A DNA stretch of 64,000 nucleotides from an uncultured Thermodesulfobacteriota bacterium. GTDB lineage: Bacteria > Desulfobacterota > DSWW01. The position numbers and the translations under genes were made by a program. Of this stretch, positions 1,196 to 50,276 are shown piece after piece. The stretch spans positions 1 through 64,000 of the forward strand of contig CAYLMK010000004.1 of NCBI GenBank assembly GCA_964384945.1, written 5' to 3'. Positions within the stretch are counted from its first letter, which is position 1. Every line of letters starts with the position of its first letter. The notes below the pieces were generated by a model. That model made no database searches. It was given only the letters and a program-made list of their open reading frames with translations, and had not been told where the DNA came from.

Positions 1196-2995
1196 TCACT
1201 CTGAGACCCTCGAATGGGGATCCGTGAACCTCTCGGCCCAGGGCTCGAGGTACTCTTCGACCTCGGATAGGAGGGGCTCCGGGACCTCTGCGGCCATGGC
1301 CTCGAGCACCCCCTCCACGGTCAGTTCGACCGAGGACATCCGAATGTCCAGGGCCTGGTTCTCATCCACATCGAAGAGGATGCTCTTGGGGCCGCCCGTC
1401 TCGTTCGACCAGGGCTGCCACTCGGGAAGCCCCGAGCCCGGAGGATTCGGATCGCCCGTGCGGGCGAACTGCGCCGCGTAGGCCATCATGGCATCGGACA
1501 GGGCCTCCCGGCCCGGGCGGTTCTGCTCGGTAAAGAGCAGGGCCTGCAGCGCGCCGAAGAAGACGTCGTTGCCGAAGAAGAAAGGAATCTCCAGGCCGTG
1601 GAAGGCGCCCAGCCGGAATCCCCAGGGGTCGGGAAGCTCACTCTCGCCGTTCTCGTCCAGGCTGCCCCAGAGGAATTGATACGTGTAGACGGACGGCTGC
1701 GCCGCATGGGATCGCAGCAGCCGGGCCGGCTGGTCCACGCCCGTGGCCTTCCAGACGTCGCTTCCGTAAGAGGTGACGACCGCATAGAGATCGTCCCTCC
1801 CGGCCAGGGCCGGGTCCGCGAACATGAAGAGCTTGAGTTCGTCCTTATTGCTGCCCAGGATAGTGGGCACCTTGTTCGGATAGGTGCCGGACTCGAGCGT
1901 CTCGCAGCCCGTGTCGGGCAGGACCGTGCCGTCTTCGAACACGTTCGGCAGCGTGATCATGCCGCCGAACCAAGGCTCGTACGCCAGAAGGATCTCGCGC
2001 GGGCTCTTGGCCCTCAGGTAGGCCTCTATCTCGGCGGCGCTCATGCCTGCAAGGCGCCCCTCGGCCGCCTCCGTATCGGCCGCGGTCCCGTCGTTGACGA
2101 GAAGTTTGAGGATCGCGTTCCGGGCGCTCTCTTCCCCCTCTTCCACGGTGCTCGAAAGCGGCCCGCCGCTCTCCGCCATGGCCCTGTGGAAGAGGCCCTC
2201 GGCCAGCGGAGAGACGAGAAGGGAGAAAACGTTCATGGCCCCGGCCGACTCGCCCGCGATCATCACCCGTCCCGGGTCGCCGCCGAAGGCCTCGATGTTG
2301 TCACGCACCCACTCGAGGGCCTTGACGAGATCCAGGGTTCCGTAGTTGCCCGAATCGTCCCCTTCGCTGCCCGGCACCCCCTGCCGGAGGGCGGGATGTG
2401 TGAACCACCCAAACGGCCCGAGCCGGTAGTTCACCGTCACGACCACCAGGTTGGACCGGCTGGCGAGGTTTGCGCCGTTGTAGTCCTCGGTGCATGCGGT
2501 CCCCATGCTGTTGCCGCCGCCGTGTATCCAGAAGTACACGGGCAGGCCGGCCTCCGGCGTGCGGGGGCGCCAGATGTTCAGGTACAGGCAATCCTCGCTT
2601 CCGTACGTTCGGTTTCCGATCAGGAAATACTGGGCGCAGGGCTCGCAGAAGCTGCTCGTCTTCCGGACCCCGTCCCATGGCTCCGGGTCCCGGGGCGCCT
2701 TCCATCGAAGCGGTCCGACCGGCGGCCTGGCAAACGGGATCGCCTTCCAGACCCAGGTGTCCGCGTTTCCCTCCACGGCCTCCACGGCCCCTGACCGGGT
2801 CCGGGTCCTGGGATCCCCAGTCCAGGCCGGGGAATTCGAGGCCGTGGCCCCCTCGTCGTCACCGCACCCGTGCGCAAATAGGCCGGCGAGAAGGGCAAAC
2901 GAGAGAATGGAAATGGAGAGGCCGCAAATTCCCTTTCTGCCGTCCTCGCGGGGCCGGGAACGGTCCGAGCCATGACTCGAGATGCCGAACAGCAT
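1196..2995 (-). CDS. Type-B carboxylesterase/lipase, probable lipoprotein
   Basis: The GESAGA nucleophile elbow, the HGGG oxyanion-hole motif (YFWIHGGGNSMG) and ~600 aa match the carboxylesterase type B family. The likely start is MLFGISSHG... with a lipobox-like LFAHGC. The upstream 76 aa of the ORF is probably spurious. Confidence 0.8.
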   Translation of the reverse strand: MLFGISSHGSDRSRPREDGRKGICGLSISILSFALLAGLFAHGCGDDEGATASNSPAWTGDPRTRTRSGAVEAVEGNADTWVWKAIPFARPPVGPLRWKAPRDPEPWDGVRKTSSFCEPCAQYFLIGNRTYGSEDCLYLNIWRPRTPEAGLPVYFWIHGGGNSMGTACTEDYNGANLASRSNLVVVTVNYRLGPFGWFTHPALRQGVPGSEGDDSGNYGTLDLVKALEWVRDNIEAFGGDPGRVMIAGESAGAMNVFSLLVSPLAEGLFHRAMAESGGPLSSTVEEGEESARNAILKLLVNDGTAADTEAAEGRLAGMSAAEIEAYLRAKSPREILLAYEPWFGGMITLPNVFEDGTVLPDTGCETLESGTYPNKVPTILGSNKDELKLFMFADPALAGRDDLYAVVTSYGSDVWKATGVDQPARLLRSHAAQPSVYTYQFLWGSLDENGESELPDPWGFRLGAFHGLEIPFFFGNDVFFGALQALLFTEQNRPGREALSDAMMAYAAQFARTGDPNPPGSGLPEWQPWSNETGGPKSILFDVDENQALDIRMSSVELTVEGVLEAMAAEVPEPLLSEVEEYLEPWAERFTDPHSRVSE

Positions 2996-3075
2996 GCGAA
3001 TCTCCTCCGTAATGGCTGCCGAAAACGATTCGAAGACCCCGCGGCGTCCGTGGACACCGCAGATCCTTTTCGACG

Positions 3076-3834
3076 CTATTTGAAAACCTCCACCCTGTGA
3101 AAGGCCTCGGCCAGCTCGAAGCCCTCCTGTCCGGCAAAGGCCTTGCACAGGGGCCTGAGCCAGCCCTCCAAGTCTGTGGAACCGACCGCACGGGCAATCT
3201 GTTCCATCTGGGTCCCGTGGCACCGAAGTGCGGCAACCTTGAGGTCAAAGGTTGCCGTGATGTCCGAGCGGTAGTTGACGTCATCGGAGCCCCAGAAAAG
3301 GAGCTCCTGCACCTTGTGAGGGGCCAGGCCCTGCTTGAGCAGGTCGGGGTAGGAAAGAGGGTCTCGCGCAAAGGGATAAACCGCGTCCAGGACAACCTGC
3401 CCAGTAATGCGATGATCGCGGTGGGAGATGTAGCGGCGATAGGGATCCGAGGTGGCAACCGTCCGGGGCCGGTAGGCCCGGATCACCCGCACAATCTCTT
3501 TGCGGAAGGCCGGCGTGTCTTCCAGGCTCTGGTCCGGGTGCCGAAGGAAGACGACCTCGCGGACTCCCAGCACCGCGGCCGCCTCCCTCTGCTCGGTCTC
3601 CCGGATTTCCGCAAGGCGCTCGGGCGCCATGTCGGGGTCGGACGTTCCCTTGTCTCCGTTCGTGCAAATGACGTAGACGACCTTCTTTCCCTGCCCTGTC
3701 CATGCCGCCACGGTGCCGCCGGCGCCGAATTCCGCGTCATCCGGATGGGCGGCGATCACCAGTACGTCCGCCAGTATACTCACGTTGCGAAGCCCCGCCT
3801 CTTGTACAGGTTCTATTTCCACACTGTCAGCCAA
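3076..3834 (-). CDS. PIG-L/LmbE family N-acetylglucosaminyl deacetylase
   Basis: The N-terminal AHPDDAEFGAGG motif and a later HxDH motif are typical of MshB/BshB/LmbE-like zinc deacetylases. Confidence 0.8.
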   Translation of the reverse strand: MADSVEIEPVQEAGLRNVSILADVLVIAAHPDDAEFGAGGTVAAWTGQGKKVVYVICTNGDKGTSDPDMAPERLAEIRETEQREAAAVLGVREVVFLRHPDQSLEDTPAFRKEIVRVIRAYRPRTVATSDPYRRYISHRDHRITGQVVLDAVYPFARDPLSYPDLLKQGLAPHKVQELLFWGSDDVNYRSDITATFDLKVAALRCHGTQMEQIARAVGSTDLEGWLRPLCKAFAGQEGFELAEAFHRVEVFK

Positions 3835-4813
3835 CGAACACCCGGCACCTGTAGAGCGGGACCGGGCTGCCCCCCAGCCGCCGCTTGTATGCCTCGGCGC
3901 CTTTCAGAAAATCGAATTTCTTCTTCCCCTCCCGGATCGCCTCCCGGATGCTGAGCACCTTGCTGAGGAAGCCCACGCTGAGGGAACCAAAACGGGGGTC
4001 GTAGCCGTTGTTGTAAAGGTAAACCGTGGAACGGTCCTGAAAACACAGTACCGCAGCGGCGGACTCGCCATCAAGCTCGAGAATCGAAAGCCTGAGCAGG
4101 CCGGCCCGGGCCGTCTCCTCGGCCAGGGACCGGAAGAAGCAAGCCCGCCGGCTCGTCAGGAAGGCGGCTTTGTCCGGCCGGCTGGCTTTGAAGAGCTGCA
4201 GAAAGGTATCCATCGCCGGGCCGGTCTGCGCCGGGTCGCCCGCCGTACGGAACTGGATCCGTCCCGCCTCCTGAAGTCTCTTGAGCTTCCGCCGGATCTC
4301 GTGCCGCTCCGCCCCCTTGAGAAGCCGCAGGTATTCCTCCCAGGTGGCCGGCAGCGCAAGCTCGTAGGAGACATCCTCACGCTTGAGGAGGGCCTCGCAG
4401 CCCATCTTCTTCGCCTCGGGGAGAAGCCCGCCCATCACCGCCGAGTCCGGCCGTACCGGCCCCAGTTCCAGGAGCCGGATCCCCTGCCGCCTCAACTCCT
4501 CGATCAGGGCTTGGAAAAACTCCGGGCCTCTTCCCGGGGCCGTGACGAAATCCAGGTAATCGCACACGTCCGGCGCGCCGACGAACGAGGCCTCCGCCTC
4601 CCGGACCCGCAGGGGCGCAATCCCGATCAGGTCCTGTCCCTTTTCGACCGAAAGGAGCAGGAGCGCACCGGATTCTCCGAAGGCGTTCCACCACGCCCGC
4701 AACCAGGAGGGGTGCACAAAGGGACAATTCCATGCAAGGCGGCTCCCGCCGCCCGTCCATCGTGAAGACAGGCTCTCGAACGTCTCCCGCCTCACCCTGC
4801 AGCCCTCTTCCAT
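3827..4813 (-). CDS. FemAB/CelD-like GNAT acyltransferase (Acetyltransf_6 / BioF2-like family)
   Basis: The C-terminal ...FDFLKGAEAYKRRLG... region is characteristic of the CelD/FemAB-like GNAT family. It overlaps the deacetylase gene by 8 nt, which suggests an operon. Confidence 0.65.
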   Translation of the reverse strand: MEEGCRVRRETFESLSSRWTGGGSRLAWNCPFVHPSWLRAWWNAFGESGALLLLSVEKGQDLIGIAPLRVREAEASFVGAPDVCDYLDFVTAPGRGPEFFQALIEELRRQGIRLLELGPVRPDSAVMGGLLPEAKKMGCEALLKREDVSYELALPATWEEYLRLLKGAERHEIRRKLKRLQEAGRIQFRTAGDPAQTGPAMDTFLQLFKASRPDKAAFLTSRRACFFRSLAEETARAGLLRLSILELDGESAAAVLCFQDRSTVYLYNNGYDPRFGSLSVGFLSKVLSIREAIREGKKKFDFLKGAEAYKRRLGGSPVPLYRCRVFVG

Positions 4814-4832
4814 ATCGGCTCATCTTCGAAAT

Positions 4833-5140
4833 TCAAAGGGAAACGGTTCGTCCCGTGCGGGCCGCCTCTGCCAGCCCGTCCAGCACCCTCATGTTGCGCA
4901 CGCTTTCCTCGGGAGAGATCAGGGGGGCGGTCCGGCCCAGAACGGCATCGGAGAAATGTTCCACCATGAGCCGATACTCGTCCGCACCCGGCACCCGGTG
5001 CTCCTCGCCCGCATCCTGGTCCCTCCTCCGCAAGGTGAAGGTCGTGTCCTTTTCCCACGGCACAAAGGCGTCCTGAGGCAGGTCGACAGCTCCGTCGGAA
5101 CCGATATATCAGGGCCTCCATCAGAAGGGCCAGCGGAGTT
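4833..5140 (-). pseudogene. Remnant of a Gfo/Idh/MocA-family oxidoreductase (C-terminal ~100 aa only)
   Basis: The 76-aa ORF 4833..5063 reads ...EEHRVPGADEYRLMVEHFSDAVLGRTAPLISPEESVRNMRVLDGLAEAARTGRTVSL, which is the conserved C-terminal dimerization region of Gfo/Idh/MocA enzymes. The ~250 aa of N-terminal Rossmann domain that should lie upstream is occupied by the next gene. Confidence 0.5.
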
Positions 5141-5147
5141 TGGACCA

Positions 5148-6419
5148 TCATGCTTCGGCACTCCCCCCGCCTTTCATGTGCCATCGAGGGCCGCAAGAGG
5201 TGTCCTCGACGACCACGCCCCCTCGCAGGAGTGCGTCACGGATCGCGTCCGCCTCCTGCCATTGCCGGGCCTGCCGGAACCTCTCCCGGAGAGCAAGCAA
5301 CTCCTCGACCAGCGGCGCAACGAAACCGGAAGGGTCTGCCGCACGGGGCCAGAGCTTGACGCCGAGCGAGACGATCATTTCTCTGAGGATCTCCCTCGCC
5401 TGCGAGATGAACTCCCCGCTCTCGATATCCTGGTGCGCCTCCCAGATCGTCCGATCCAACTCGAGAAGGGCGTTGATCGCAGCTCCCGGCTCGTTCGACA
5501 CGAGACCCTTCTCAAAGGCGGCCTCGATTCGGTGAACCTCGTCCCAGAAGGGTTCTTCCCTCGTGCCCGTCGAGACCCGATCGGTCTCGGCAACCGGCGC
5601 CTCCCGCCTCCATCCCGTCCAGAGATCCCCTCCACGCAGGGCATCCAGGGGAACAGGCCGTCCCCCTTCGAAGGACTTCTCGCCTCGGCGGCTGCGCAGG
5701 GTCACCCGGCCGATCCCCTTGATGACCGCCTCCTCCCTTTCGAGGTCGACCAGGCAGGCCGTGTGTTCGTCGAGGCCCAGCACGGAGACATCCTCGGGGA
5801 GGAGAGACTCCAATTCCCGGAACCGCGGCTCTCCCATGTAACAGAAACGGGTGTCGTGGGTTCCTCCTTCGGCGTTGTTCCAGTGAGGGATCACCACGAG
5901 ATTCAAACCGAACCGGCCCAGGAGATCCATCCCCTCCAGCCAGTGAACCGCCTCGCCTACCTTGTAGATCTCATAGACCGGCAGGGTGAAACGACCCACG
6001 GTCAGGGCGGCGGCGCTCGCAGCCACCAGACACCCGCCCTGTTCCACCCTGTTCGCCAGAATCTCCGGAATCGGCGTTTCACGCCACTGACGGACCGCAT
6101 AACTGGGGCTGCCGGGCCCGATGAGTACATAGTCGGCCTGGCGGAGGCAGTGGAAGGCCTGCTCCGCCTCGAACGGGGTCGCCTTCTCGTGAGACTTGAA
6201 GGAAGCGACGGAGATGGGATGTCGCACGTGGTTTCGGAAATACTCGGCGGCCCTCTGCGAGAGATGCTCCACATTGAGCTGGAAGCCGGCCGGCGTATCC
6301 AGGAAGACGGCTCGGGGGGCGTCTCCGATGCCGGCAAGCAAGTCCTTGTGGACCTCGACCATGGTGGCGGTCAGCTCACCCGAGCCCATCAGGGCGATGA
6401 CGCCCTTCTTCGTTGACAT
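5148..6419 (-). CDS. Fusion protein: N-terminal peptidase S51 (dipeptidase E/cyanophycinase-like) domain + C-terminal cysteinyl-tRNA synthetase-like helical domain
   Basis: The start at MSTKKGVIALMGSGE (ATG 6417-6419) fits PepE-like architecture, with ...ADYVLIGPGSPS... and ...LVAASAAALT... at the nucleophile position. The C-terminal ~100 aa (...ADAIRDALLRGGVVVEDTSCGPRW) closely resembles the extreme C-terminus of bacterial CysRS. No HIGH or KMSKS motif is present, so it is not a synthetase. Confidence 0.55.
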   Translation of the reverse strand: MSTKKGVIALMGSGELTATMVEVHKDLLAGIGDAPRAVFLDTPAGFQLNVEHLSQRAAEYFRNHVRHPISVASFKSHEKATPFEAEQAFHCLRQADYVLIGPGSPSYAVRQWRETPIPEILANRVEQGGCLVAASAAALTVGRFTLPVYEIYKVGEAVHWLEGMDLLGRFGLNLVVIPHWNNAEGGTHDTRFCYMGEPRFRELESLLPEDVSVLGLDEHTACLVDLEREEAVIKGIGRVTLRSRRGEKSFEGGRPVPLDALRGGDLWTGWRREAPVAETDRVSTGTREEPFWDEVHRIEAAFEKGLVSNEPGAAINALLELDRTIWEAHQDIESGEFISQAREILREMIVSLGVKLWPRAADPSGFVAPLVEELLALRERFRQARQWQEADAIRDALLRGGVVVEDTSCGPRWHMKGGGSAEA

Positions 6420-6525
6420 GGGCCTCCCCGACGTCCCGACCGGGCCGGCCGCGGCCCCACAAAGGGCGTGAGCGGGGTGCCCGGCCCTTCTGAGGAGGCT
6501 ACCACAGCCCATTTCGCCTTGCCAA

Positions 6526-6583
6526 CTGCCGTGGCTGAGCCGCCGGCGAAGCGGCGAGCTTGCTCGCCGTGACGGCCGTCGGA
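6526..6583. repeat. Copy A of a ~58-nt conserved intergenic element (copy B at 11803..11860)
   Basis: CTGCCGTGGCTGAGCCGCCGGCGAAGCGGCGAGCTTGCTCGCCGTGACGGCCGTCGGA differs from the copy at 11803-11860 at 6 of 58 positions. It contains the internal hairpins cgccg/cggcg and gacgg/ccgtc. Confidence 0.55.
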
Positions 6584-6672
6584 CGCTCTCGCAGGCAATA
6601 CGCTCCGATTCCTGCCCCCTGTCGGGGCTCAGGGCGATCATGACGGCGGGCGGAGAACCGAGCCGGGCTCCC

Positions 6673-8007
6673 CTACTTCTTTTTGAAGGCCGTCTTGGGG
6701 AAAAAGCAGACCGGGCACTCCTCGGGCGGCTCTTCCCCGTAGTGAACGTAACCGCACATCCGGCACCGCCAGACGGACCTTCCCTTTTCCTTTCCGGATT
6801 CCAGCTCTTCGGGGTCCATCTCCCGTTGGATCGGAAGATCCTCCAGCGGGGGCATCACCGGTTCGTAGGCGCCCAGGGCAAAGCCTGAGATGATGATTCG
6901 CTGAATCTCGCTGGTCCCCTCGTAGATCTTGAAGAGGCGGCTGTCGCGCAGGAGCTTTTCGACCGGAAACATCTTCGTGTACCCGTAGCCCGCGAAGATT
7001 TGCAGGGCCTCGCTCAAGATCGACTCGGCCGCCTCGGTGGAGTACATCTTGGCCATGGACGCGGTCAGGGTCGGGTCCATGCCCCGGTCCGCCTCCCACG
7101 CCGCCTTCCAGACCAGCAGGCGGGCCGTCTCCACCTTCTGGTACATCTCGGCCAGCTTGAACTGAATGGCCTGGAAGTTGGCGATGGGCTGCCCGAAGGC
7201 ACGTCTCTTCTTCGCGTAATCGATGGCGAACTCCATGGCCGACCGGGATGCGCCGACCGCAAAGGCGCCGATGGCCGGACGGGTACGGCCGAAGGTCTTC
7301 ATGGCAAGCACGAAGCCCTCTCCGGGCGGCGCGAGCACGTTCTCCTTGGGCACCTTCACGTTCTTGAAGTTCAGAGACCCCGTGTTGGATGCCCGTTGGC
7401 CGAGCTTCTGGATGGTCGCGCCCGTCGAGACGCCCTCCCAGCCCCGCTCCACCAGAAAAGCGCAGATTCCCTTGTGCTTGGATTCCGGGTCCACGGTGGC
7501 GAAAACGGACATGTAGTCGGAGATGCCCGCGTTCGTGATCCAGAACTTGGTGCCGTCGAGCACCCAGTGGTCGCCCTCCTCCCTGGCCCGGCACCGGATA
7601 CCGGAGACGTCCGAGCCCATGGTGGGCTCGGAGGTGGCAAAGCAGATGAGCTTGAATTCCTTTGCGATTTTGGGGAGGTACTTTTCCTTCAGGGGCTCGT
7701 TCGAACAGAGAATGAGCGGCTCCATTCCCAGGGAGTTGTCGAAGATCGAGGTCGCCAGCCCCGGACAGGCCGCGGCAAGCTCCTCGGTAACGATGACGCC
7801 GTCGAGCAGCCCGTAGCCCGCCCCCCCGTACCGCACCGGGATGTCCCCGTTCATGATGCCCGCGTCGAAGGCCTTCCGGAGCACGTGCATCGGGGTTTCG
7901 TGCTTTTCGTCGTAGTGCCAGGCGACCGGGAGGATCTCTTTCCGTGCGAATTCGCGGGCCTTTTCCTGCAGCTTCCGTTGCTCGGGAGTGAGGGTGAAAT
8001 CGAGCAT
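6673..8007 (-). CDS. Acyl-CoA dehydrogenase with C-terminal rubredoxin-like domain
   Basis: Full ACAD fold signatures are present (N-terminal MLDFTLTPEQ..., FAD/CoA motifs, catalytic E in YEGTSEIQRIII). Terminal CRMCGY...CPVC is a rubredoxin-type 4-Cys knuckle. The start is taken at the MLDF Met. Confidence 0.85.
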   Translation of the reverse strand: MLDFTLTPEQRKLQEKAREFARKEILPVAWHYDEKHETPMHVLRKAFDAGIMNGDIPVRYGGAGYGLLDGVIVTEELAAACPGLATSIFDNSLGMEPLILCSNEPLKEKYLPKIAKEFKLICFATSEPTMGSDVSGIRCRAREEGDHWVLDGTKFWITNAGISDYMSVFATVDPESKHKGICAFLVERGWEGVSTGATIQKLGQRASNTGSLNFKNVKVPKENVLAPPGEGFVLAMKTFGRTRPAIGAFAVGASRSAMEFAIDYAKKRRAFGQPIANFQAIQFKLAEMYQKVETARLLVWKAAWEADRGMDPTLTASMAKMYSTEAAESILSEALQIFAGYGYTKMFPVEKLLRDSRLFKIYEGTSEIQRIIISGFALGAYEPVMPPLEDLPIQREMDPEELESGKEKGRSVWRCRMCGYVHYGEEPPEECPVCFFPKTAFKKK

Positions 8008-8066
8008 GGGGGACTCCCTGCTTCTCGGGTTGCCTTCGTCCTTCTCCTCCGATGCCGCCATGCGAA

Positions 8067-8093
8067 CTTGCTCCCCGTAACCAGGGGGAGCAA
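8067..8093 (-). terminator. Perfect 10-bp GC-rich stem-loop between the encapsulin stop and the ACAD start
   Basis: CTTGCTCCCC-gtaacca-GGGGAGCAAG. No clear U-tract follows, so it may be a processing or attenuation hairpin rather than an intrinsic terminator. Confidence 0.35.
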
Positions 8094-8127
8094 GGAATCG
8101 GGCTTCCGTCGGTGAGAAAGGAGGACT

Positions 8128-8934
8128 CTACTTCGCCTTCGGGGCCAGGGGCACGTACGCGGCCGGCTCGATGACCCGGAAAGTGAAGCTCTCGGTGACG
8201 AAGAGGGTGACTTCGGTGCTCGTGTGCGACTGGTAGCCCACCGCGAAGTCCTGGCCGATGATCAATTCCAGATCCTGGCCCCGCGTCGACACGAGGAACC
8301 CGCCCTTGGAGGAATGGCTGTAGACGATGGGTCCGCCCAGAAGACCCTGGACATGCTGCTGCAGGGGGAATCCCTCGGCGTAGCTTGCCACCAGCTGCCA
8401 GAGGTCCGGGTTTACGACCAGTGCGTAAGGGCCGCCGATGGAGGCCGCGATCAGGATGCCGACGCCCTGGGAGACGGCCTCGAGGAACCCCGCAGGGGTC
8501 TTTGCGAAGGCGATCGGCTTGTGGCGGCAGGCCTGCTGCATACCGACGATGCAGGCCGGCTCGAATCCGTTGAGGATCGCGTTCTCTTCGAACAAGGCGA
8601 TCTTTCGGGAGGCATCTTCGAGGGACTTGAGTTCGATATCTTTGGCGCCGCGGATGATATTGTCGAGCTCCCAGACATCCAGAACGAAGGAGGCGCGGCA
8701 CTCGACCAGGGGCTGCACCGCGTGGATACCGTACTGGACATCTTCCTTTTTCTGTCCTTTCGGCACCTCGAGGCGTCCGAGCGGAACGGCCGCGTAGTCC
8801 CAGCCCTGGGGCCCCACCACATCGACGAATTTGCGAGCGGACAGATAGGCCGTGAGCACCAGCCTAGCCTGTCGGTCGATCTCCTGCCAGGCTTCGAGCG
8901 TGATCGGTGCGAGGGTTCGCTTCAGAATGTCCAT
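8128..8934 (-). CDS. enc: Family 1 encapsulin nanocompartment shell protein (Linocin_M18-like, HK97 fold), 268 aa
   Basis: MDILKRTLAPITLEAWQEIDRQAR...FVDVVGPQGWDYAAVPLG...FVLDVWELDN...GPYALVVNPDLWQ...LIIGQDFAVGYQSHTSTEVTLFVTESFTFRVIEPAAYVPL is collinear with Thermotoga/Myxococcus encapsulins (MEFLKRSFAPLT...FTFQVVNPEA). The 614-aa ORF in the track is an upstream read-through, and the true ATG is at 8932-8934. Confidence 0.85.
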   Translation of the reverse strand: MDILKRTLAPITLEAWQEIDRQARLVLTAYLSARKFVDVVGPQGWDYAAVPLGRLEVPKGQKKEDVQYGIHAVQPLVECRASFVLDVWELDNIIRGAKDIELKSLEDASRKIALFEENAILNGFEPACIVGMQQACRHKPIAFAKTPAGFLEAVSQGVGILIAASIGGPYALVVNPDLWQLVASYAEGFPLQQHVQGLLGGPIVYSHSSKGGFLVSTRGQDLELIIGQDFAVGYQSHTSTEVTLFVTESFTFRVIEPAAYVPLAPKAK

Positions 8935-9060
8935 TCGTCTCTCCTTTCCTCTTTCTTTTTGCATATACTGTTGCTCGGAACATGGGAAAGGGTTCAAAAA
9001 CGTGGTATGAGTGGAAACCGGCACTTCCTTGCCAGCGGGCTCGAACCGGGAGGCGCAAAC

Positions 9061-9948
9061 ATGAGCTACGAGACCATTCTTTACGGGAGAAAGGGAAGGA
9101 TCGGGACGATCACCCTGAACCGGCCCGAGAAGTTCAACACCATACGGCCGCCCATGCCTGCGGAGATCGAATCGGCTCTGGCGGAAGCGAATGCGGACGG
9201 AGAAGTGCGGGTCATCGTCCTGCAGGGAGCGGGCGAGGCCTTTTGCGCCGGCTTCGATTTTTCCGGGGGACTCGAGCACTTCGCCGGCTGGGGCGGGCAG
9301 CCCGACGGCCGGGCCTGGGACCCGGGAAGGGACCTGATGATGGTGGCGAGCCCGTTCACAGGCCCTGTGCCCAAGTTCATGAGCATCTGGAGAAGCCCCA
9401 AGCCGGTGATCGCCAAGGTGCACGGATGGTGCGTGGGCGGCGGCTCGGACATGGCCCTTCTTTCCGACGTGATCATCGCAGCCGAGGACGCAAGATTCGG
9501 CACCCCCTATTCCAGGGTCTGGGGGTGCTACCTGACCGGGATGTGGTTCTACCGCCTGGGGCTGACGAAGACCAAGCTGCTCGCCCTGACCGGGGACAGC
9601 CTGTCCGGCAGGGAGGCGGCCGAGATGGACCTCATCAACATCGCGGTTCCGAGGGACAAGCTCGATGAGGAGGTCGAGTACTGGGCGAACCGGATGGCCC
9701 AGTGCCCCGTCTCCCAGCTCGCGGCCATGAAGCTCTCCGTGAACCAGGCTTTTGACAACATGGGGCTCGCCAACACCCAGCTTGTCGGGTCGATCCTCGA
9801 CGGCTACATGCGGAACACGCCCGAGGCCCTGGAGTTCGTCAAGACGGCCAAGGAGAAGGGAGTGGCGGCAGCCATCGCCGAGAGGGACCGGCCCTTCGGG
9901 GACTACAGCCAGGGGCCTCCCTCCATGAAGCCCGCCCGCGGGAAATAG
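9061..9948 (+). CDS. Enoyl-CoA hydratase/isomerase (crotonase family)
   Basis: ITLNRPEKFN...VLQGAGEAFCAGFDF...AKVHGWCVGGGSDMAL is the canonical crotonase oxyanion-hole region. The ATG at 9061 is the start, divergent from the encapsulin gene. Confidence 0.85.
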   Translation: MSYETILYGRKGRIGTITLNRPEKFNTIRPPMPAEIESALAEANADGEVRVIVLQGAGEAFCAGFDFSGGLEHFAGWGGQPDGRAWDPGRDLMMVASPFTGPVPKFMSIWRSPKPVIAKVHGWCVGGGSDMALLSDVIIAAEDARFGTPYSRVWGCYLTGMWFYRLGLTKTKLLALTGDSLSGREAAEMDLINIAVPRDKLDEEVEYWANRMAQCPVSQLAAMKLSVNQAFDNMGLANTQLVGSILDGYMRNTPEALEFVKTAKEKGVAAAIAERDRPFGDYSQGPPSMKPARGK

Positions 9949-10066
9949 CGGAAGGCGGGGCCCGGCAAACAAACGGGCAGGGTCTTGCGACCGTCCGCGT
10001 CGGCCCCTGCATCAAATGCATTGGGGAATTCATGCAAACACGAAACCTGCGTTGGGAGGTGCAAGG

Positions 10067-10612
10067 ATGCGGCTGACCGCGGGAGACAAGGCAAGGGATT
10101 TCGAAGTGAAGGATCTTTCGGGCAGCAAGGTTTCCCTTGGGGAGTATCGGGGCAAGCGGTTGATGCTGTCTTTTTACCGGTACGCGTCGTGTCCCTTGTG
10201 CAACCTGAGGGTTCACGAACTTGCCGGGCATTACGATTCCATGAAGGAGAAGGGCTTGCTTATGCTCGCCTTTTTCCAGTCGCCGGAGGACAGTATCCGC
10301 CGATACGTGGGCAAGCAGGATCCCCCCTTCAGGATCGTGGCCGATCCGGAACGGAAGGTGTACCGCCTCTACGGGGTCGAGTCCTCATGGGCGGGTTTCC
10401 TGAAGGGATCCCTCCGGGTCTCCTCGATGATCGCTGCCGCAGGTAAGGGCTTTTTCCCCGGCAAGATGGAGGGCGACAAGGCGATGATACCGGCCGATTT
10501 CCTCATCGGCCCGGACCTGATCGTAGAGAGGGCCTACTACGGAGCCGATATCGGGGACCACATGCCTCTGGAGGACATCACGGCCTGGCTGGCGTCTTCG
10601 AAAAGCGAATAG
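10067..10612 (+). CDS. Thioredoxin-fold redoxin (AhpC/TSA-like, CxxC)
   Basis: The DFEVKDLSGSKVSL...SCPLC motif indicates a redoxin. A GGAGG RBS sits 8 nt upstream of the ATG at 10067. Confidence 0.7.
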   Translation: MRLTAGDKARDFEVKDLSGSKVSLGEYRGKRLMLSFYRYASCPLCNLRVHELAGHYDSMKEKGLLMLAFFQSPEDSIRRYVGKQDPPFRIVADPERKVYRLYGVESSWAGFLKGSLRVSSMIAAAGKGFFPGKMEGDKAMIPADFLIGPDLIVERAYYGADIGDHMPLEDITAWLASSKSE

Positions 10613-10619
10613 TGCCGTA

Positions 10620-11684
10620 TCAATCTTCCTCCAGGATTCCGTCCTTGAGTGCCTTCAGGTTGGGAACCGGCATCGGCGAAAGGAAGCCGTTCTCCGGGTT
10701 GAACATCATGCGGTAGGACACCGCCGCATTGCCCTGCCGGCTCATCACGTCCCATCCCCGCACCAGATAAGGGCACTCGTCGTTGAAGCAGATGTACATG
10801 TAGTCGTGTTGCCAGATGTTGAAAGGCGAATCCGGGATCAGCCACTTCTTCATCTTCCGGCCGCAGTGGGGGCAACACAGGGTCCTTTTGACCTCCTCTC
10901 GCTGCGCCCGCATCTGTTCGGCCGTCAGGGTCCGCGCTTCTTCCTGCGGGATGGACGGCCTTCGGATTCTCTTCGGATCCCCGCCCTTCTTCTCGGCATA
11001 GACAGCATAGATCGGATCACTCGGAAGCCCGCTGTCCGCGTACTTGTCATCCTTGGGCCTGGGCTTTCCCTTCGAGGTGAAAACCACCGGCTTCTCGAAT
11101 CGTTCGCCGGCCCCGAAGTAGTCTTCCACCAGCAGGATACGTTCCGGCTCGCTCGATTCCCTCCAGACCTTCACCACCTTTTCCGGAAACATGCGGTTGG
11201 AAAAGATGACCAGGAAAAGCCCCCCCGGCTTGAGTATTCTCGCCACCTCGCGAAACACCTGAAAGGGCTTGATCATGTAGTCCACGGAGGCCGTGTTCAG
11301 GACCACATCGAAGCGGTTGTCTTCAAAGGGCAGGACGGGATCCATGTTCAGGTCGTGCAGTACGATTTCCGTCAGGGCCCGGTTCCTGGAAAGCTCGTTT
11401 TCATTCAGGCCGAGGCCCACGACCTCGTCGGCATCGATGGATTTGGGGATGTGGGAGTCCCACCCGGCCATCAGATCCAGGATGGCCGGCCTCTTTTCCA
11501 CGACAAGCGTCCTGATGAGTCTCTCGACCGTGGCCAGGGCCACCGCGTCGAGGTGTTCCACAAACCGGTCACGGGAATAGAAATGCCTGTCATCGGATTC
11601 GTCGTTCCTGGAGAATCCGTCCCCGCTGTTCAAGAACTCCTCCATGCTGCAGCGAGCATTTTCTTCGAGGTGGGGGCTGTTCAT
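10620..11684 (-). CDS. Class I SAM-dependent methyltransferase with C-terminal zinc-ribbon
   Basis: VLDLMAGWDSH...VVLNTASVDYM...LKPGGLFLV are methyltransferase motifs I-III. The C-terminal CCPHCG...CFNDECPY is a Zn ribbon. The start is at MNSPHLE (ATG 11682-11684). Confidence 0.7.
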   Translation of the reverse strand: MNSPHLEENARCSMEEFLNSGDGFSRNDESDDRHFYSRDRFVEHLDAVALATVERLIRTLVVEKRPAILDLMAGWDSHIPKSIDADEVVGLGLNENELSRNRALTEIVLHDLNMDPVLPFEDNRFDVVLNTASVDYMIKPFQVFREVARILKPGGLFLVIFSNRMFPEKVVKVWRESSEPERILLVEDYFGAGERFEKPVVFTSKGKPRPKDDKYADSGLPSDPIYAVYAEKKGGDPKRIRRPSIPQEEARTLTAEQMRAQREEVKRTLCCPHCGRKMKKWLIPDSPFNIWQHDYMYICFNDECPYLVRGWDVMSRQGNAAVSYRMMFNPENGFLSPMPVPNLKALKDGILEED

Positions 11685-11802
11685 CGATTCCTTCCTTTCT
11701 GTACCACCACGGCGCGTTCCCTTTACCGTGCGTCGGATGCCGAAATCGGGTTGATAACCTGGCCTGCCTCCCCAAGTGGGGAGGGATAATAAAGTCGTAT
11801 AT

Positions 11803-11860
11803 CTGCCGCGGCTGAGCCGCGGGCGAAGCGGCGGTATTGCTCGCCGTGACGACCGTCGGA
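11803..11860. repeat. Copy B of the ~58-nt conserved intergenic element
   Basis: ~90% identical to 6526-6583. A 14-bp inverted repeat (ATCTGCCGCGGCTG at 11801-11814 and CAGCCGCGGCAGAT at 11900-11913) brackets the element. Confidence 0.55.
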
Positions 11861-11946
11861 TCAAGCCGCCTGATGGACGGCGCTCCGCGCCGGCCTCAGG
11901 CGGCTGCTCCAGCCGCGGCAGATGGCACGGCGCGAAGCGTCCGTGC

Positions 11947-11962
11947 CATCTAAATTTAGATG
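11947..11962. promoter_or_regulatory. Perfect AT-rich 16-bp palindrome CATCTAAATTTAGATG (candidate operator)
   Basis: It is a perfect palindrome, very AT-rich in a 65% GC background, and flanked by CGTGCC/GGCACG. It lies ~260 nt upstream of the minus-strand methyltransferase start. Confidence 0.3.
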
Positions 11963-41323: not shown

Positions 41324-42247
41324 TCAGACTTGGGGGCGGGGATAGAGGCCGGCCTCCTTGACCATCTCCGGGACCTTCTCCTCCCATTCGATGGCCATGA
41401 TGTGCACGCCGGCCACGCCCTCCATCTCCCTGAGCTGCTGGATGGTCTCCACGCAGATCTTGATCCCCTCCTTGGCGGCATTGCCCTTGCCCGCCTCTCG
41501 CAGGCGCTTGATGATCTCGTCCGGCACGTCCATGCCGGGGACCGATTTCTTCATGTACTGCGCCATACCGACGCTCTTCATGGGGGTGACGCCGGCCAGG
41601 ATCTTGACCTTCTCGTGCAGGCCTCGGTCCACCACGCCCTTCATCCATTTGCGGAACTTGTCCATGTTGTAGATGCACTGGGTCTGGATGAAGTCCACCC
41701 CGGCCGCCGCCTTCTTGGCCAGCCGGGGAACCCGGATCGCAAAGGGGTCGGCAAACGGGTTGGCCGCAGCACCGATGAAGAACTTGGGAGGGGTCTTGAT
41801 CTCCTGACCGTTGATGAACTTGCCCTCTTCCCGCATCCGGTGAACCGCCTGGATGAGCTGGATGGAGTCGATGTCGTACACATTCTTCGCGGTGGGGTTG
41901 TCCCCGAAGCGCTGATGATCCCCGGAAAGGCAAAGCAGGTTGTTCATCCCGAGGGCCGCGGCGCCGAGCAGGTCGCTCTGCAGGGCAATGCGGTTCCGGT
42001 CCCGGGTCGTCATCTGCACGATCGGCTCGAGGCCCATCCCCTTCAGGATCACGCACGCCGCAATCGAAGACATCCGCACCACCGAAGTCTGGTTGTCGGT
42101 CACATTGATCGCGTCCACGCAATCCTTGAGGAGCTCGCCCTTCTCCCGGATCGCCTGAGGATCCGCCCCCCGCGGGGGGCCGCACTCGGAGGTAACGGCA
42201 AACGCACCACTTTCCAGTACCTTTTCCAAGCGACTGGCTGTCTTCAT
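41324..42247 (-). CDS. metF: Methylenetetrahydrofolate reductase
   Basis: MKTASRLEKVLESGAFAVTSE...DFIQTQ... matches the MTHFR TIM-barrel family. 307 aa. Confidence 0.85.
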   Translation of the reverse strand: MKTASRLEKVLESGAFAVTSECGPPRGADPQAIREKGELLKDCVDAINVTDNQTSVVRMSSIAACVILKGMGLEPIVQMTTRDRNRIALQSDLLGAAALGMNNLLCLSGDHQRFGDNPTAKNVYDIDSIQLIQAVHRMREEGKFINGQEIKTPPKFFIGAAANPFADPFAIRVPRLAKKAAAGVDFIQTQCIYNMDKFRKWMKGVVDRGLHEKVKILAGVTPMKSVGMAQYMKKSVPGMDVPDEIIKRLREAGKGNAAKEGIKICVETIQQLREMEGVAGVHIMAIEWEEKVPEMVKEAGLYPRPQV

Positions 42248-42915
42248 TCTCGCATGTCCTCCCTGACGATCTTTCTCGGCCCGCCGTCCCGACTCGTGTT
42301 CCAGTCTTTGTAGGGCGCCACCTGTTCGTACATTTGCTCGAGCAGCCCGAGAGCCTCCAGGCGATCCACGATCAACTGCCAGCCGCAGGGCACATCCGGG
42401 TCGATCTCGCACTTGCCTCCCGAAGACCCGCCGCAGGGGCCGTTGAGCAGGCTCTTCGAGCACCGCGTGATCGGGCAGATGCCGCCGGTCAGGTGCAGGA
42501 CGCAGTTCCCGCAACCCTGGCACCGCTCGACCCAGACCCCCTGTTCCTGGGAGCCGCCCATGAAATCCGTATTCAGCCCGGGCAGGGCCGGAATATCCTT
42601 GTAACGCTCCGCCATGTACTGCACGCCCACGCCGCAGGCGATCGACAGGACGGCCTGGTAGTCGTGCACGAAGCCCTCGATCTGCTCGATGTATTCCGGG
42701 TCGCACTGCCTCTCGAGGGTCACCTCCTTCACCTCGATGTCCCGCCCGTCCTTCTTGCGCGCCAGCCGTATGGCGGAAGCCAGGATGCCCACCTCCTTCT
42801 CGCCGCCCGCGGCGCAAACGGCCACGCACCCCTTGCAGCCGATCAAGGCGATCTTGTCGAAGGGCTCGAGCATCTTGAGGATTTCTTCCAGCGGCTTTCG
42901 ATGTCCGATGATCAT
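42244..42915 (-). CDS. metV: MTHFR C-terminal-domain-like Cys-rich subunit (MetV-like)
   Basis: Multiple Cys clusters (CKGCVAVC..., CQGCGNC, GPCGG). Overlaps metF by 4 nt. Such partners are known in acetogen-type MetFV. Confidence 0.7.
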   Translation of the reverse strand: MIIGHRKPLEEILKMLEPFDKIALIGCKGCVAVCAAGGEKEVGILASAIRLARKKDGRDIEVKEVTLERQCDPEYIEQIEGFVHDYQAVLSIACGVGVQYMAERYKDIPALPGLNTDFMGGSQEQGVWVERCQGCGNCVLHLTGGICPITRCSKSLLNGPCGGSSGGKCEIDPDVPCGWQLIVDRLEALGLLEQMYEQVAPYKDWNTSRDGGPRKIVREDMRE

Positions 42916-43203
42916 GTAACGCCTCCCCTTAATGCGTCCTATCCCATGTGGCGTCGATTCGTACTAGATCCAAGCGTAGAGCGTCATGGATCCCTTCACG
43001 TTGCTTGTCATTCCGGGCTTGACCCGGAATCCAGTCTCTTTTCCCTTCCGGATTCCTTCCTTCGCAGGAAGGACGGCTCTCAAGGTCGCAATATCCGTCA
43101 AGCAGCGTCAGACGCACTGCACTAGCTGTCAGCGTTTCGTTCCCAGGCCGGGGAGGAGAGGGGGATCTGACCCCTGTCCCCTGAAACCTGACCCCTGCAC
43201 TGT

Positions 43204-43650
43204 TCATGCAGCCGGTTGGGCCGGTTCCCCTTCCGGGTGCTTGCCCTCGGCCTTGTCTCCCTTCCCGCCCGACTTCCGTTTCTGCTCCGCCGGCTCTTCC
43301 GTGGGCTCGCTTCCTTTGCCGGTCCGGATCGGACTCGGGCCCAGGGCCTTGATCCTTTCGGTGAACTTGCGCGCGATGTCGACGAAGCGGGGCCCGTCGG
43401 CCGCCGACAGGTTGAACATCTCCACCCGCGCCGGGTTGATCCCCAGGTCCTTCAGGATCGACTTCACATAGCCGACCCGCTTCTTGGCCCGGATGTTTCC
43501 CTTCAGGAAATGACAGTCCCCTTCCTCGCAGCCGGCCACATAGACGCCGTCCACCCCGTCTTCCAGGGCCTTGAGAAGGTAGAGGGCATCCACCTTGCCC
43601 GTGCAAGGTATTCGGATGATCTTCACGTTCGTCGGGTAATCCATTCGCAT
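43204..43650 (-). CDS. mvhD: MvhD/FlpD-like hydrogenase delta-subunit-type iron-sulfur protein
   Basis: KIIRIPCTGKVDALYLLKALEDGVDGVYVAGCEEGDCHF matches the methyl-viologen-reducing hydrogenase delta subunit family. Confidence 0.75.
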   Translation of the reverse strand: MRMDYPTNVKIIRIPCTGKVDALYLLKALEDGVDGVYVAGCEEGDCHFLKGNIRAKKRVGYVKSILKDLGINPARVEMFNLSAADGPRFVDIARKFTERIKALGPSPIRTGKGSEPTEEPAEQKRKSGGKGDKAEGKHPEGEPAQPAA

Positions 43651-43723
43651 CGAACCTGCCAGGTCCGCAGCCGTGTACGCTCAGTAATTGCAGCAGTAGG
43701 CCAGGATTTCCGGCTCAAAAGAC

Positions 43724-48223: not shown

Positions 48224-48239
48224 ATGGGTTGCTCTCCTA

Positions 48240-48620
48240 TCAGGAAGCCCTGTAAAAGGGCGTTCGATCTTCGATTCTATCGATCGCGACCAGGTTCTTG
48301 CGGCGGAGTTCCACCACCTCCGGGAGGATCTCCGCCGGGGACTTCCCGAGATCCTCCGCGATCTGCTTGACCGATTTCGCTTCCCCTCGGACCACCTCGA
48401 GGATGCGGCACCGCAAGTATTCGGTGCGGAAGATGGCGTCGTAGCAGATGTTGACCTGCGTCTGTGCGTAAAGTTCGCCGTACACGTTCTTGCCCTTCAG
48501 GAAGGATTCCCTTCCCAGCAGCGTCCGGAGCTTCTCCGCCATGTCCGGCCGCTGCTTCTCGATGAAGGCGAGCATTTGCTCACGGCCGGGTTGCTCGAGT
48601 TCGAACTTGTTCGGTTCCAT
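48240..48620 (-). CDS. Small winged-helix-like protein embedded in the hdr cluster (putative regulator)
   Basis: 126 aa. ...LRCRILEVVRGEAKSVKQIAEDLGKSPAEILPEVVELRRKNLVAI... resembles a wHTH. A strong RBS is present. Function is inferred only. Confidence 0.4.
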   Translation of the reverse strand: MEPNKFELEQPGREQMLAFIEKQRPDMAEKLRTLLGRESFLKGKNVYGELYAQTQVNICYDAIFRTEYLRCRILEVVRGEAKSVKQIAEDLGKSPAEILPEVVELRRKNLVAIDRIEDRTPFYRAS

Positions 48621-50259: not shown

Positions 50260-50276
50260 GGCTCTACCCTCCTTAC

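What the first reader, a model, noticed from the sequence alone, without database searches (positions are those of the whole stretch)
6526..11913. ~58-nt conserved element present twice, each ~110-120 nt upstream of a minus-strand gene start
The sequences at 6526-6583 and 11803-11860 are ~90% identical (6 mismatches in 58) in intergenic DNA of a 65% GC genome. Both copies have the same orientation and lie at nearly the same distance upstream of the next minus-strand start codon. Those genes are the S51::CysRS-C-terminal fusion and the SAM methyltransferase. Both contain the internal palindromes cgccg/cggcg and GACGGCCGTC. The second copy is also bracketed by a 14-bp inverted repeat (11801-11814 with 11900-11913). 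This points to a structured cis-regulatory RNA (leader or attenuator), a small RNA, or a REP-like element, rather than chance.
Basis: seen in the sequence. Interest (0 to 1): 0.55.

Follow-up and report, generated by a model that had tools for sequence, protein, structure and literature searches.

The report
Copies of a palindromic mobile repeat
The two similar 58-base stretches are one full copy and one fragment of a roughly 149-base, GC-rich, hairpin-forming dispersed repeat that also occurs at unrelated sites in other metagenomes (once in frame inside a gene), so it looks like an ordinary MITE-like selfish element and not a regulatory RNA for these two genes.

Summary
The repeat is real: 6526-6583 and 11803-11860 share 52 of 58 bases, with no other copy in the window. 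But 58 nt is only the part the two sites share. At the second site the unit is about 149 nt (11803-11951, 74% GC). Two further full-length copies turned up in unrelated metagenome contigs: L026 (132/149 identical) and L025 (126/149), each with different flanks. The L025 copy is an exact 49-codon, in-frame insertion in a membrane-protein gene whose homologues lack it. The closest syntenic relative (L019) has no recognisable copy upstream of either gene. No copy was found in about 130 kb of relatives' loci. The first copy is a 3' fragment that abuts a 30-nt promoter-like block conserved upstream of the S51::CysS_C gene in all relatives examined, so it probably lies outside that gene's transcript. 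All full copies fold into one hairpin plus a Y-shaped domain (z about -8 for copy B). There are three compensatory pairs, and variation is concentrated in unpaired positions. Rfam finds nothing. Best reading: a new family of non-autonomous, MITE/RPE-like palindromic mobile elements in an uncultured Desulfobacterota-like lineage. Copy number per genome, target-site duplication and the mobilising enzyme remain unknown.

The parts
11803..11951 (.). Copy B: full-length (about 149 nt) GC-rich palindromic repeat between the abhydrolase gene and the methyltransferase gene
   Evidence: nhmmer with the B/C/D profile covers 11804-11950, E = 2e-44. 132/149 identical to L026:259-407 and 126/149 to L025:488-636, with no indels. 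MFE -106 kcal/mol on the + strand and -103 on the - strand, z about -8.
6526..6583 (.). Copy A: 58-nt fragment matching positions 92-149 of the element (read on the minus strand)
   Evidence: 52/58 identical to B, 53/58 to D, 50/58 to C. nhmmer model positions 92-148, E = 3e-11. The flanks on both sides are homologous to L019, which carries 26 unrelated bases in place of 48.
11920..11951 (.). Terminal hairpin ('hairpin 0') of copy B: AGATGGCACGG-N10-CCGTGCCATCT
   Evidence: 11-bp perfect stem (I4). 14 pairs in the three-copy consensus. Three of them show changes on both sides that keep the pair: A-U/G-C/C-G, A-U/C-G and G-C/A-U.
11801..11814 (.). Arm of the 14-bp perfect inverted repeat ATCTGCCGCGGCTG (outer stem of the Y-shaped domain)
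Evidence: I1.
11910..11923 (.). Second arm of the inverted repeat, CAGCCGCGGCAGAT. It lies inside the element, next to hairpin 0
   Evidence: I1. The outer stem is kept in all three full copies.
6496..6525 (-). Conserved promoter-like block TTGGCAAGGCGAAATGGGCTGTGGTAGCCT, directly downstream of fragment A (context, not part of the repeat)
   Evidence: Near-invariant in the four loci aligned (window, L019, L021, L022), whose flanks have diverged, and recognisable by eye in L030 and, less exactly, L033. Reading it as -35 TTGGCA, 18-nt spacer, TGn + TAGCCT is my inference; the consensus scanner did not call it.
5148..6419 (-). S51 peptidase::CysS_C fusion gene downstream of fragment A (context)
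   Evidence: Pfam PF03575 and PF23493. Orthologues at 63-79% identity are widespread.
10620..11684 (-). Methyltransf_11 gene with an Ogr/Delta-like zinc finger, downstream of copy B (context)
   Evidence: Pfam. The same product is called on JGI and Logan contigs.

Best explanation
The finding is one complete copy (B, 11803-11951) and one 58-nt 3' fragment (A, 6526-6583) of a previously undescribed family of 147-149-nt, 74-82% GC, non-coding dispersed repeats. As a single strand each unit folds into a terminal 14-bp hairpin plus a Y-shaped domain closed by a 12-14-bp inverted repeat.

Shown: the family occurs at unrelated loci in at least three assemblies, is missing from the orthologous sites of relatives, and has entered a coding sequence as an exact 49-codon in-frame insertion.

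Inferred: it is a non-autonomous mobile element, MITE/RPE-like, moved in trans by an enzyme encoded elsewhere. I saw no consistent target-site duplication. One arm of the inverted repeat is internal. The fold is better preserved on one strand. For these reasons my preferred mechanism is recognition of single-stranded DNA hairpins, as by IS200/IS605- or REP/RAYT-type Y1 transposases. This last step is speculative.

Locally, copy B is probably a passenger in the abhydrolase-methyltransferase spacer. If co-transcribed it would add a very stable structure to the transcript. Fragment A sits just upstream of the -35 box of the S51::CysS_C promoter. The similar distance to the two start codons is most likely coincidence.
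For: 1. Extent and family.
- A six-frame translation of site B used as a protein query found P0121. Its contig L025 carries a copy 86% identical over 144 nt.
- A representative search with P0121 found P0124. Its contig L026 carries a copy 90% identical over 146 nt.
- The three full copies align over 149 columns without indels and have unrelated flanks.

2. Insertion behaviour.
- P0121 has exactly 49 extra residues (147 nt) in a loop, compared with homologues P0122, P0123 and P0125. Conservation is strong on both sides of the insertion.
- The same allele occurs in a second sample (P0126, 99% identical).
- The syntenic relative L019 has a 200-nt spacer upstream of the methyltransferase gene, against 352 nt in the window. 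Homology stops before the element and resumes after it, 72 nt upstream of the ATG.

3. Not gene-linked.
- No copy upstream of the S51 or methyltransferase orthologues in L019, L021, L022, L030 or L033. No copy anywhere in about 130 kb of relatives' loci.

4. Origin of fragment A.
- A is as close to the foreign copy D (53/58) as to its neighbour B (52/58). It shares GAGCTTGCTC with C and D, not with B. So A is not a local duplicate of B.

5. Structure.
- For copy B, z about -8 against shuffles on both strands, 0 of 200 shuffles as good.
- 96-98% of cells are paired, against 29-57% when partners are slid.
- Three pairs carry compensatory changes.
- Variable columns: 10 of 29 unpaired against 15 of 120 paired, Fisher p = 0.01.

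6. Assembly behaviour.
- Logan contigs of the same strain stop at 11921 and restart at 11830, about one k-mer inside each end of copy B. That is what a repeat does to a de Bruijn graph.

7. No known RNA family.
- No Rfam family matches.
Against: - Only four sites are known. I could not count copies per genome: 73 kb of the source contig holds just B and A.
- A genome-contig scan with a 22-mer that matches A, B and D exactly found only one chance hit. The family is therefore rare, or its hosts are not among the representative genomes.
- No consistent target-site duplication among the three full copies.
- The left arm of the inverted repeat is 30 nt inside the element, so it is not a textbook MITE.
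- No transposase was found among the roughly 44 window ORFs scanned, plus the genes called on L027.
- The empty site for B cannot be defined to the nucleotide, because L019 has diverged there.
- L025 and L026 are short contigs of unknown organisms. P0121 is N-terminally shorter than its homologues, so the interrupted gene could be a decaying copy.
- Conservation of the fold would also fit a functional RNA.
Confidence: 0.75

Rival explanations
1. A multi-copy structured non-coding RNA (a small RNA gene, or a cis-acting RNA module such as an mRNA stabiliser or processing site). On this view the fold is selected at the RNA level and the copies are functional paralogues.
For: - The fold is very stable and conserved, with three compensatory pairs and variation concentrated in loops.
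- Five one-sided changes are G.U on the window + strand but A.C on the - strand. That points to selection on one single strand.
Against: - The better-folding strand is antisense to the flanking genes in the window and to the host gene in L025, so it is not the mRNA strand.
- The copies share no promoter or terminator; their flanks are unrelated and there is no T-run after either end.
- One copy is an in-frame insertion inside a coding sequence, and one is a truncated fragment.
- The element is absent at orthologous sites in relatives.
- No Rfam match.
- The strand asymmetry rests on 5 changes (one-sided p about 0.03). A single-stranded DNA transposition intermediate would explain it equally well.
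Confidence: 0.12
2. A cis-regulatory leader, attenuator or riboswitch shared by the S51::CysS_C gene and the methyltransferase gene.
For: Same orientation and similar distance (106 and 118 nt) upstream of two same-strand genes. Hairpin potential.
Against: - Not conserved upstream of either orthologue in any relative.
- Fragment A ends at the 5' edge of the conserved promoter-like block, so it is probably not transcribed with the gene.
- The 78-nt pieces around the 58-mer fold no better than shuffles at site A (z = -0.1).
- The real unit is 149 nt, and only site B has it whole.
- Copies exist at unrelated loci.
- No Rfam hit.
Confidence: 0.03
3. A double-stranded DNA site: a composite operator or enhancer for a transcription factor that co-regulates the two genes, or recombination sites bracketing the 5.3-kb encapsulin segment between the two direct copies.
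For: - Many short palindromes: GACGGCCGTC in A, and GCCGCGGC.
- Fragment A abuts a -35-like box.
- The two copies are direct repeats flanking 6584-11802.
Against: - 90% identity over 58 nt, and about 88% over 149 nt between different assemblies, is far more than operators need.
- Relatives keep the same gene order without the repeats (L019), so the repeats are not att-like borders of an island.
- One copy lies inside a coding sequence.
- The compensatory changes keep a hairpin but do not keep a fixed half-site sequence.
Confidence: 0.05

Closest known systems
Rickettsia palindromic elements (RPEs)
   Same: About 150 bp, palindromic and highly structured, dispersed, non-coding for a transposase. 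Able to sit in frame inside protein-coding genes, adding a peptide segment without breaking the frame (RPE traits from PMC10969869; here).
   Different: No sequence relationship was tested or expected. RPEs belong to AT-rich Rickettsia genomes; this element is 74-82% GC and comes from a Desulfobacterota-like metagenome lineage. Only one intragenic copy is known here, against dozens for RPEs.
Bacterial MITEs (for example Correia, ERIC, Nezha, and Chunjie of Geobacter uraniireducens)
   Same: Small size, no ORF for a transposase, inverted repeats, a stable fold. Filled and empty sites between relatives, truncated copies, location mostly between genes (PMC10969869 and PMC3184786; here).
   Different: Chunjie, the known MITE from the same broad group, is 178-235 bp, A+T-rich, and has 21-bp terminal inverted repeats and 9-bp direct repeats. 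Here one arm of the inverted repeat is internal, a separate 32-nt hairpin forms one end, and no consistent target-site duplication is seen.
REP / REPIN elements mobilised by RAYT (Y1) transposases
   Same: GC-rich imperfect palindromes in intergenic DNA, with inverted pairs of hairpins forming a larger hairpin. No target-site duplication expected. Proposed single-strand hairpin recognition (PMC3184786, and general knowledge).
   Different: REPs are 20-40 nt and REPINs about 70-110 nt, present in tens to hundreds of copies. Here the unit is 149 nt with a branched fold, the copy number is unknown, and no RAYT gene was seen in the window.
IS200/IS605-derived palindrome-associated elements
   Same: Ends formed by hairpins, not by terminal inverted repeats. 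No target-site duplication. Strand-specific single-stranded DNA mechanism, which would fit the G.U / A.C asymmetry. The family traits are from my own knowledge.
   Different: The two end hairpins here are unlike each other. No conserved tetra- or pentanucleotide is seen next to the copies. No TnpA or TnpB gene was found nearby.

Membership tests
MITE (non-autonomous transposable element) | Small (about 50-500 bp) with no transposase ORF | tested here: met
   147-149 nt. It is too short to encode a transposase, and its frames yield only Ala/Arg/Pro-rich translations.
MITE (non-autonomous transposable element) | Terminal inverted repeats | tested here: inconclusive
   A 12-14-bp inverted repeat is present in all full copies. 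One arm is at the very end. The other lies 30 nt inside, next to a separate terminal hairpin.
MITE (non-autonomous transposable element) | Target-site duplication flanking each copy | tested here: inconclusive
   The flanks of B, C and D share no consistent direct repeat. A possible 2-nt NG...NG repeat fits two of the three copies, but it is confounded with base pairing. Boundaries are uncertain by about 2 nt.
MITE (non-autonomous transposable element) | Multiple dispersed copies within a genome | tested here: inconclusive
   Four sites with different flanks in three or more assemblies. Only one full copy plus one fragment in 73 kb of the source contig. Whole genomes could not be scanned.
MITE (non-autonomous transposable element) | Filled versus empty sites between related sequences | tested here: met
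   The L019 spacer upstream of the methyltransferase gene lacks the element and is 152 nt shorter. P0122, P0123 and P0125 lack the 49-residue segment of P0121.
MITE (non-autonomous transposable element) | A related autonomous insertion sequence with the same ends | not testable with these tools
   No transposase among the window proteins scanned.
Rickettsia palindromic elements | In-frame insertion in coding sequences that keeps the reading frame | tested here: met
   One case: 49 codons in P0121/P0126, with the host protein conserved on both sides.
Rickettsia palindromic elements | Sequence membership in one of the RPE families of Rickettsia | not tested
   No RPE sequences were compared. The host lineage and base composition (74-82% GC) make membership implausible. 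The claim is that it works like an RPE, not that it is one.
REP/REPIN with RAYT | 20-40-nt palindromic unit in high copy number, with a RAYT gene flanked by units | tested here: not met
   The unit is 149 nt with a branched fold. There are two sites in 73 kb. No Y1 transposase among the scanned window proteins. Copy number and RAYT elsewhere in the genome could not be tested.
cis-regulatory leader RNA / riboswitch | Conserved in the 5' UTR of orthologous genes across relatives | tested here: not met
   Absent upstream of the S51::CysS_C and methyltransferase orthologues in L019, L021, L022, L030 and L033.
cis-regulatory leader RNA / riboswitch | Match to a curated RNA family | tested here: not met
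   Rfam 15: nothing at gathering thresholds over the whole window. Only chance-level hits (E = 0.35 or higher) in the two spacers.

The most novel reading that the evidence does not exclude
This is a GC-rich counterpart of the Rickettsia palindromic elements in free-living anaerobic Desulfobacterota. On this reading it is a 149-nt element mobilised strand-specifically as single-stranded DNA by an HUH/Y1-type enzyme that recognises its conserved terminal hairpin. It leaves no target-site duplication, and its stop-free frames let it persist inside protein-coding genes as new Ala/Pro/Arg-rich loop segments.
Probability: 0.2. Interest if true: 0.5.

Novelty: new member of a known kind. Interest (0 to 1): 0.3.

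Why it matters
For annotation, it removes a false lead. These two genes do not share a leader RNA, and the 58-mer should be masked as repeat DNA. The real regulatory signal upstream of the S51::CysS_C gene is the neighbouring conserved 30-nt block.

For biology, it adds a small, strongly structured, GC-rich repeat family from an uncultured anaerobic lineage. The family shows a clean example of in-frame colonisation of a membrane-protein loop. That behaviour is best documented in Rickettsia and is rarely noted in high-GC free-living bacteria.

If more copies are collected, the conserved hairpin with compensatory changes and the strand asymmetry give a concrete handle for identifying the enzyme that moves the element.

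Tried and rejected
- Rfam at gathering thresholds on the whole window, and at E up to 10 on both spacers: nothing meaningful.
- Sigma-70 and terminator scans of both spacers: no promoter. The single terminator-like hit lies inside the S51 coding sequence.
- Sigma-54 promoter reading of GGCG...TTGCT and of TTGGCA...: the spacing does not fit GG-N10-GC (read by eye).
- Genome-contig scan with GCTGAGCCGCNGGCGAAGCGGCG: one hit, inside a coding region of a Spirochaetia MAG, with similarity limited to the 23-nt pattern, so chance.
- Metagenome-contig scan with TGCTCGCCGTGACGNCCGTCGG: 15 hits, none with element similarity outside the pattern; they read like coding DNA for VLAVTxVG.
  - In hindsight this was a poor pattern. 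Copies C and D differ from it by one and three bases, and the source contig is not in that collection. The negative therefore says little.
- Second six-frame protein query built from copy C: found only P0121 again.
- Plasmid collection and viral contigs with two invariant blocks: no match.
- Extending the source contig by 9 kb and scanning about 130 kb of relatives' loci: no further copy.
- First look-up of the 243-aa ORF failed because the start codon was wrong.
- Ideas rejected on the sequence:
  - Diversity-generating retroelement template/variable repeat pair: the A/B differences are not adenine-specific, and no reverse transcriptase was seen among the window ORFs scanned.
  - Integron attC: no GTTRRRY core, and gene order is conserved in relatives.
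  - Retron msr/msd: no reverse transcriptase among the window ORFs scanned.
  - att-like borders of a 5.3-kb island: L019 has the same gene order without the repeats.
  - Local duplication of B giving A: A is equally close to the foreign copy D.


Full report
OBSERVATION

The two stretches exist as described. 6526-6583 and 11803-11860 are 52/58 identical in the same orientation. blastn gives E = 4e-14 within the window. A 24-mer core with one degenerate position matches both sites exactly and nowhere else even with three mismatches allowed, and never in 100 shuffles. No third copy is present in the 64 kb, either by blastn or by nhmmer with all filters off.

Both lie in intergenic DNA upstream of minus-strand genes:
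- ATG at 6419: an S51 peptidase + CysS_C fusion.
- ATG at 11684: a Methyltransf_11 protein with an Ogr/Delta-like zinc finger.
The gaps to the start codons are 106 and 118 nt.

Four details need correcting:
- The window is 63% GC.
- The second arm of the 14-bp inverted repeat is at 11910-11923, not 11900-11913.
- GACGGCCGTC is palindromic only in copy A.
- 58 nt is not the size of the element.

WHAT THE UNIT REALLY IS

I therefore translated site B in six frames, joined the open segments and used them as a protein query, hoping that gene callers had run ORFs across other copies.

- That search found P0121. Its contig L025 (ENA ERZ27247974, 1142 bp) carries DNA 86% identical to site B over 144 nt. 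The match extends well beyond the 58-mer into the hairpin at 11920-11951.
- A library-wide search with P0121 then found P0124. Its contig L026 (ENA ERZ4201062, 615 bp) carries a copy 90% identical over 146 nt.

The three full copies are B = window 11803-11951, D = L026 259-407 and C = L025 488-636. They align over 149 columns with no indel. Identities are B-D 132/149, C-D 136/149 and B-C 126/149, and GC content is 74-82%. Their flanks are unrelated.

Site A corresponds to the last 58 positions only. A is as similar to D (53/58) as to its neighbour B (52/58). It also shares the central GAGCTTGCTC with C and D, not with B. So A is a truncated family member and not a local duplicate of B.

EVIDENCE THAT IT IS INSERTED DNA AND NOT A GENE-LINKED SIGNAL

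1. Insertion in a coding sequence. In L025 the element lies inside an ORF for a membrane protein. Against three homologues (P0122, P0123, P0125), P0121 carries exactly 49 extra residues (147 nt) in a loop that is otherwise 9-10 residues long. Conservation is strong on both sides. A 99%-identical protein from a JGI sample has the same insertion.

2. Absence at the orthologous site. The window is JGI contig Ga0394875_0000029. The closest relative found, L019, has an S51 protein 79% identical and the same gene order: abhydrolase, methyltransferase, AhpC, encapsulin, acyl-CoA dehydrogenase-rubredoxin, S51. Its spacer upstream of the methyltransferase gene is 200 nt, against 352 nt in the window. 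Homology runs for about 95 nt from the upstream gene and for the last 72 nt before the ATG. In between, the window has 62 nt plus the element, and L019 has 57 nt.

3. Fragment A and the promoter block. Upstream of the S51 gene, L019 aligns with the window across the whole spacer at about 72% identity. Where the window has 48 bases of fragment A, L019 has 26 unrelated ones. Directly downstream of fragment A lies TTGGCAAGGCGAAATGGGCTGTGGTAGCCT (6496-6525, minus strand). This block is nearly invariant in L019, L021 and L022 in the alignment, and recognisable in L030 and, less exactly, L033, although the surrounding DNA and even the upstream gene differ. I read it as the gene's promoter: -35 TTGGCA, 18-nt spacer, TGn-extended -10 TAGCCT. 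That reading is an inference. If it is right, fragment A is not in the 5' UTR.

4. Relatives. No copy of the element occurs anywhere in about 130 kb of relatives' loci, nor in 9 kb of extra source contig.

5. Assembly break. Logan contigs of the same strain end at 11921 and restart at 11830, roughly one 31-mer inside each end of copy B. This is how a de Bruijn assembler treats a repeat. It is only suggestive, since coverage loss in a GC-rich hairpin would look similar.

STRUCTURE

Each full copy folds, on either strand, into a 14-pair terminal hairpin ('hairpin 0', 11920-11951 in B) followed by a Y-shaped domain. The outer stem of that domain is the 12-14-bp inverted repeat. The domain's two arms are long GC-rich hairpins.

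- Copy B: MFE -106 (+) and -103 (-) kcal/mol, z about -8, 0 of 200 shuffles as good.
- Across the three copies, 96-98% of cells are paired, against 29-57% when partners are slid by 1-3 columns.
- All three pairs with changes on both sides lie in hairpin 0: A-U/G-C/C-G, A-U/C-G and G-C/A-U.
- Variable columns are enriched in unpaired positions: 10 of 29 against 15 of 120, Fisher p = 0.01.
- Five one-sided changes give G.U on the window + strand but A.C on the - strand, and none go the other way. The + strand folds 3-9 kcal/mol better in every copy.

With three sequences this is thin. It does suggest that a single strand, RNA or DNA, is what selection sees. That strand is antisense to the neighbouring genes here and to the host ORF in L025.

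By contrast, the 78-nt piece around the 58-mer at site A folds no better than shuffles (z = -0.1), and the piece at site B only weakly better (z about -2).

MECHANISM

Shown: this is a dispersed, structured, non-coding repeat with filled and empty sites and one in-frame intragenic insertion.

Inferred: it is a non-autonomous mobile element moved in trans.

The flanks of B, C and D show no consistent target-site duplication, and the boundaries are uncertain by about 2 nt. One arm of the inverted repeat is internal. One end is a hairpin with compensatory evolution. There is a strand bias. Together these fit hairpin-recognising, single-strand transposition (IS200/IS605 TnpA or RAYT-like) better than a classical cut-and-paste MITE. 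No such enzyme was found among the roughly 44 window ORFs scanned with Pfam plus the genes called on L027, and four sites cannot settle the question.

Local consequences are inferred only. Copy B would add a structure of about -103 kcal/mol to any abhydrolase-methyltransferase read-through transcript. Fragment A could influence the adjacent promoter.

COMPARISON WITH KNOWN ELEMENTS

- It behaves most like Rickettsia palindromic elements: about 150 bp, palindromic, tolerated in frame inside genes (PMC10969869).
- More generally it resembles bacterial MITEs.
- It differs from Chunjie, the described MITE of Geobacter, which is 178-235 bp, A+T-rich, and has 21-bp terminal repeats and 9-bp direct repeats (PMC3184786).
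- It is longer and more branched than REP/REPIN units.
- It matches no Rfam family, no plasmid and no viral contig.
- The 22-mer that matches A, B and D exactly is absent from the 185,579 representative genomes, apart from one chance hit.

I therefore rate it a new member of a known kind.

VERDICT

Interest is modest: it is an ordinary class of selfish DNA, with a neat in-frame insertion and a hairpin that could lead to its transposase once more copies are collected.

Noticed in passing
window 6496-6525 (- strand); L019 about 7907-7936; also L021, L022, L030, L033 upstream of the S51::CysS_C gene: A 30-nt block, TTGGCAAGGCGRAATCGRCTGTGTTAGCCT, is almost invariant upstream of the S51::CysS_C gene in loci whose surrounding spacer and even upstream gene differ. 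It is probably the promoter (-35 TTGGCA, extended -10 TGnTAGCCT) or a conserved operator. This block, not the 58-mer, is the conserved cis element of the gene.
   Followed up: partly
window 1196-6419 (- strand); L022 8001-14201; L030 10001-16221: The S51 peptidase::CysRS-C-terminal fusion gene is always followed by a GNAT/FemAB-like acetyltransferase. In relatives a GT4 glycosyltransferase, a PIG-L deacetylase and a carboxylesterase also follow. This gene set recalls mycothiol/bacillithiol-type thiol biosynthesis (GT4, PIG-L deacetylase, CysRS-like ligase, GNAT). The fusion family is large: about 8000 database hits, mostly unnamed (the few named hits are Syntrophobacterales, Deltaproteobacteria or other proteobacterial MAGs).
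   Followed up: no
window 6673-10612: An encapsulin (Linocin_M18, 268 aa as called on other contigs) sits next to an acyl-CoA dehydrogenase with a C-terminal rubredoxin-like domain and a divergent AhpC peroxiredoxin. The window also has an enoyl-CoA hydratase gene between AhpC and the encapsulin, which the syntenic relative L019 lacks.
   Followed up: no
window 11947-11962: A perfect 16-bp AT-rich palindrome, CATCTAAATTTAGATG, is formed at the junction of the flank with the first bases (GATG) of copy B. It may be a coincidence of the insertion site or a hint of target preference for AT-rich DNA.
   Followed up: no
window 11830 and 11921 (ends of Logan contigs SRR12686701_124402 and SRR12686701_262935): Two contigs from an independent assembly of the same strain both terminate about 30 nt inside copy B, leaving 11831-11920 unassembled. 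This fits a multi-copy repeat or a presence/absence polymorphism in that sample.
   Followed up: partly
L025 238-873 (P0121) and P0126: The membrane-protein ORF that carries the in-frame copy is N-terminally much shorter than its homologues P0122 and P0123 (211 aa against 279-358 aa). It may be a truncated or decaying paralogue and not a working gene.
   Followed up: no
window 10620-11684 (- strand): The SAM-dependent methyltransferase carries a C-terminal Ogr/Delta-like zinc-finger region (Pfam E = 1e-4, below the gathering score). It is conserved next to the S51 cluster in several relatives (L019, L030, L033).
   Followed up: no
window 42244-51060 (- strand): A cluster of genes: a heterodisulfide-reductase-like protein (CCG domain), FlpD, a 1499-aa multi-domain flavin/FeS oxidoreductase, a protein with the MetF C-terminal domain, and a B12-binding protein. 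This is typical of anaerobic C1 or electron-bifurcating metabolism and fits a Desulfobacterota-like anaerobe as host.
   Followed up: no
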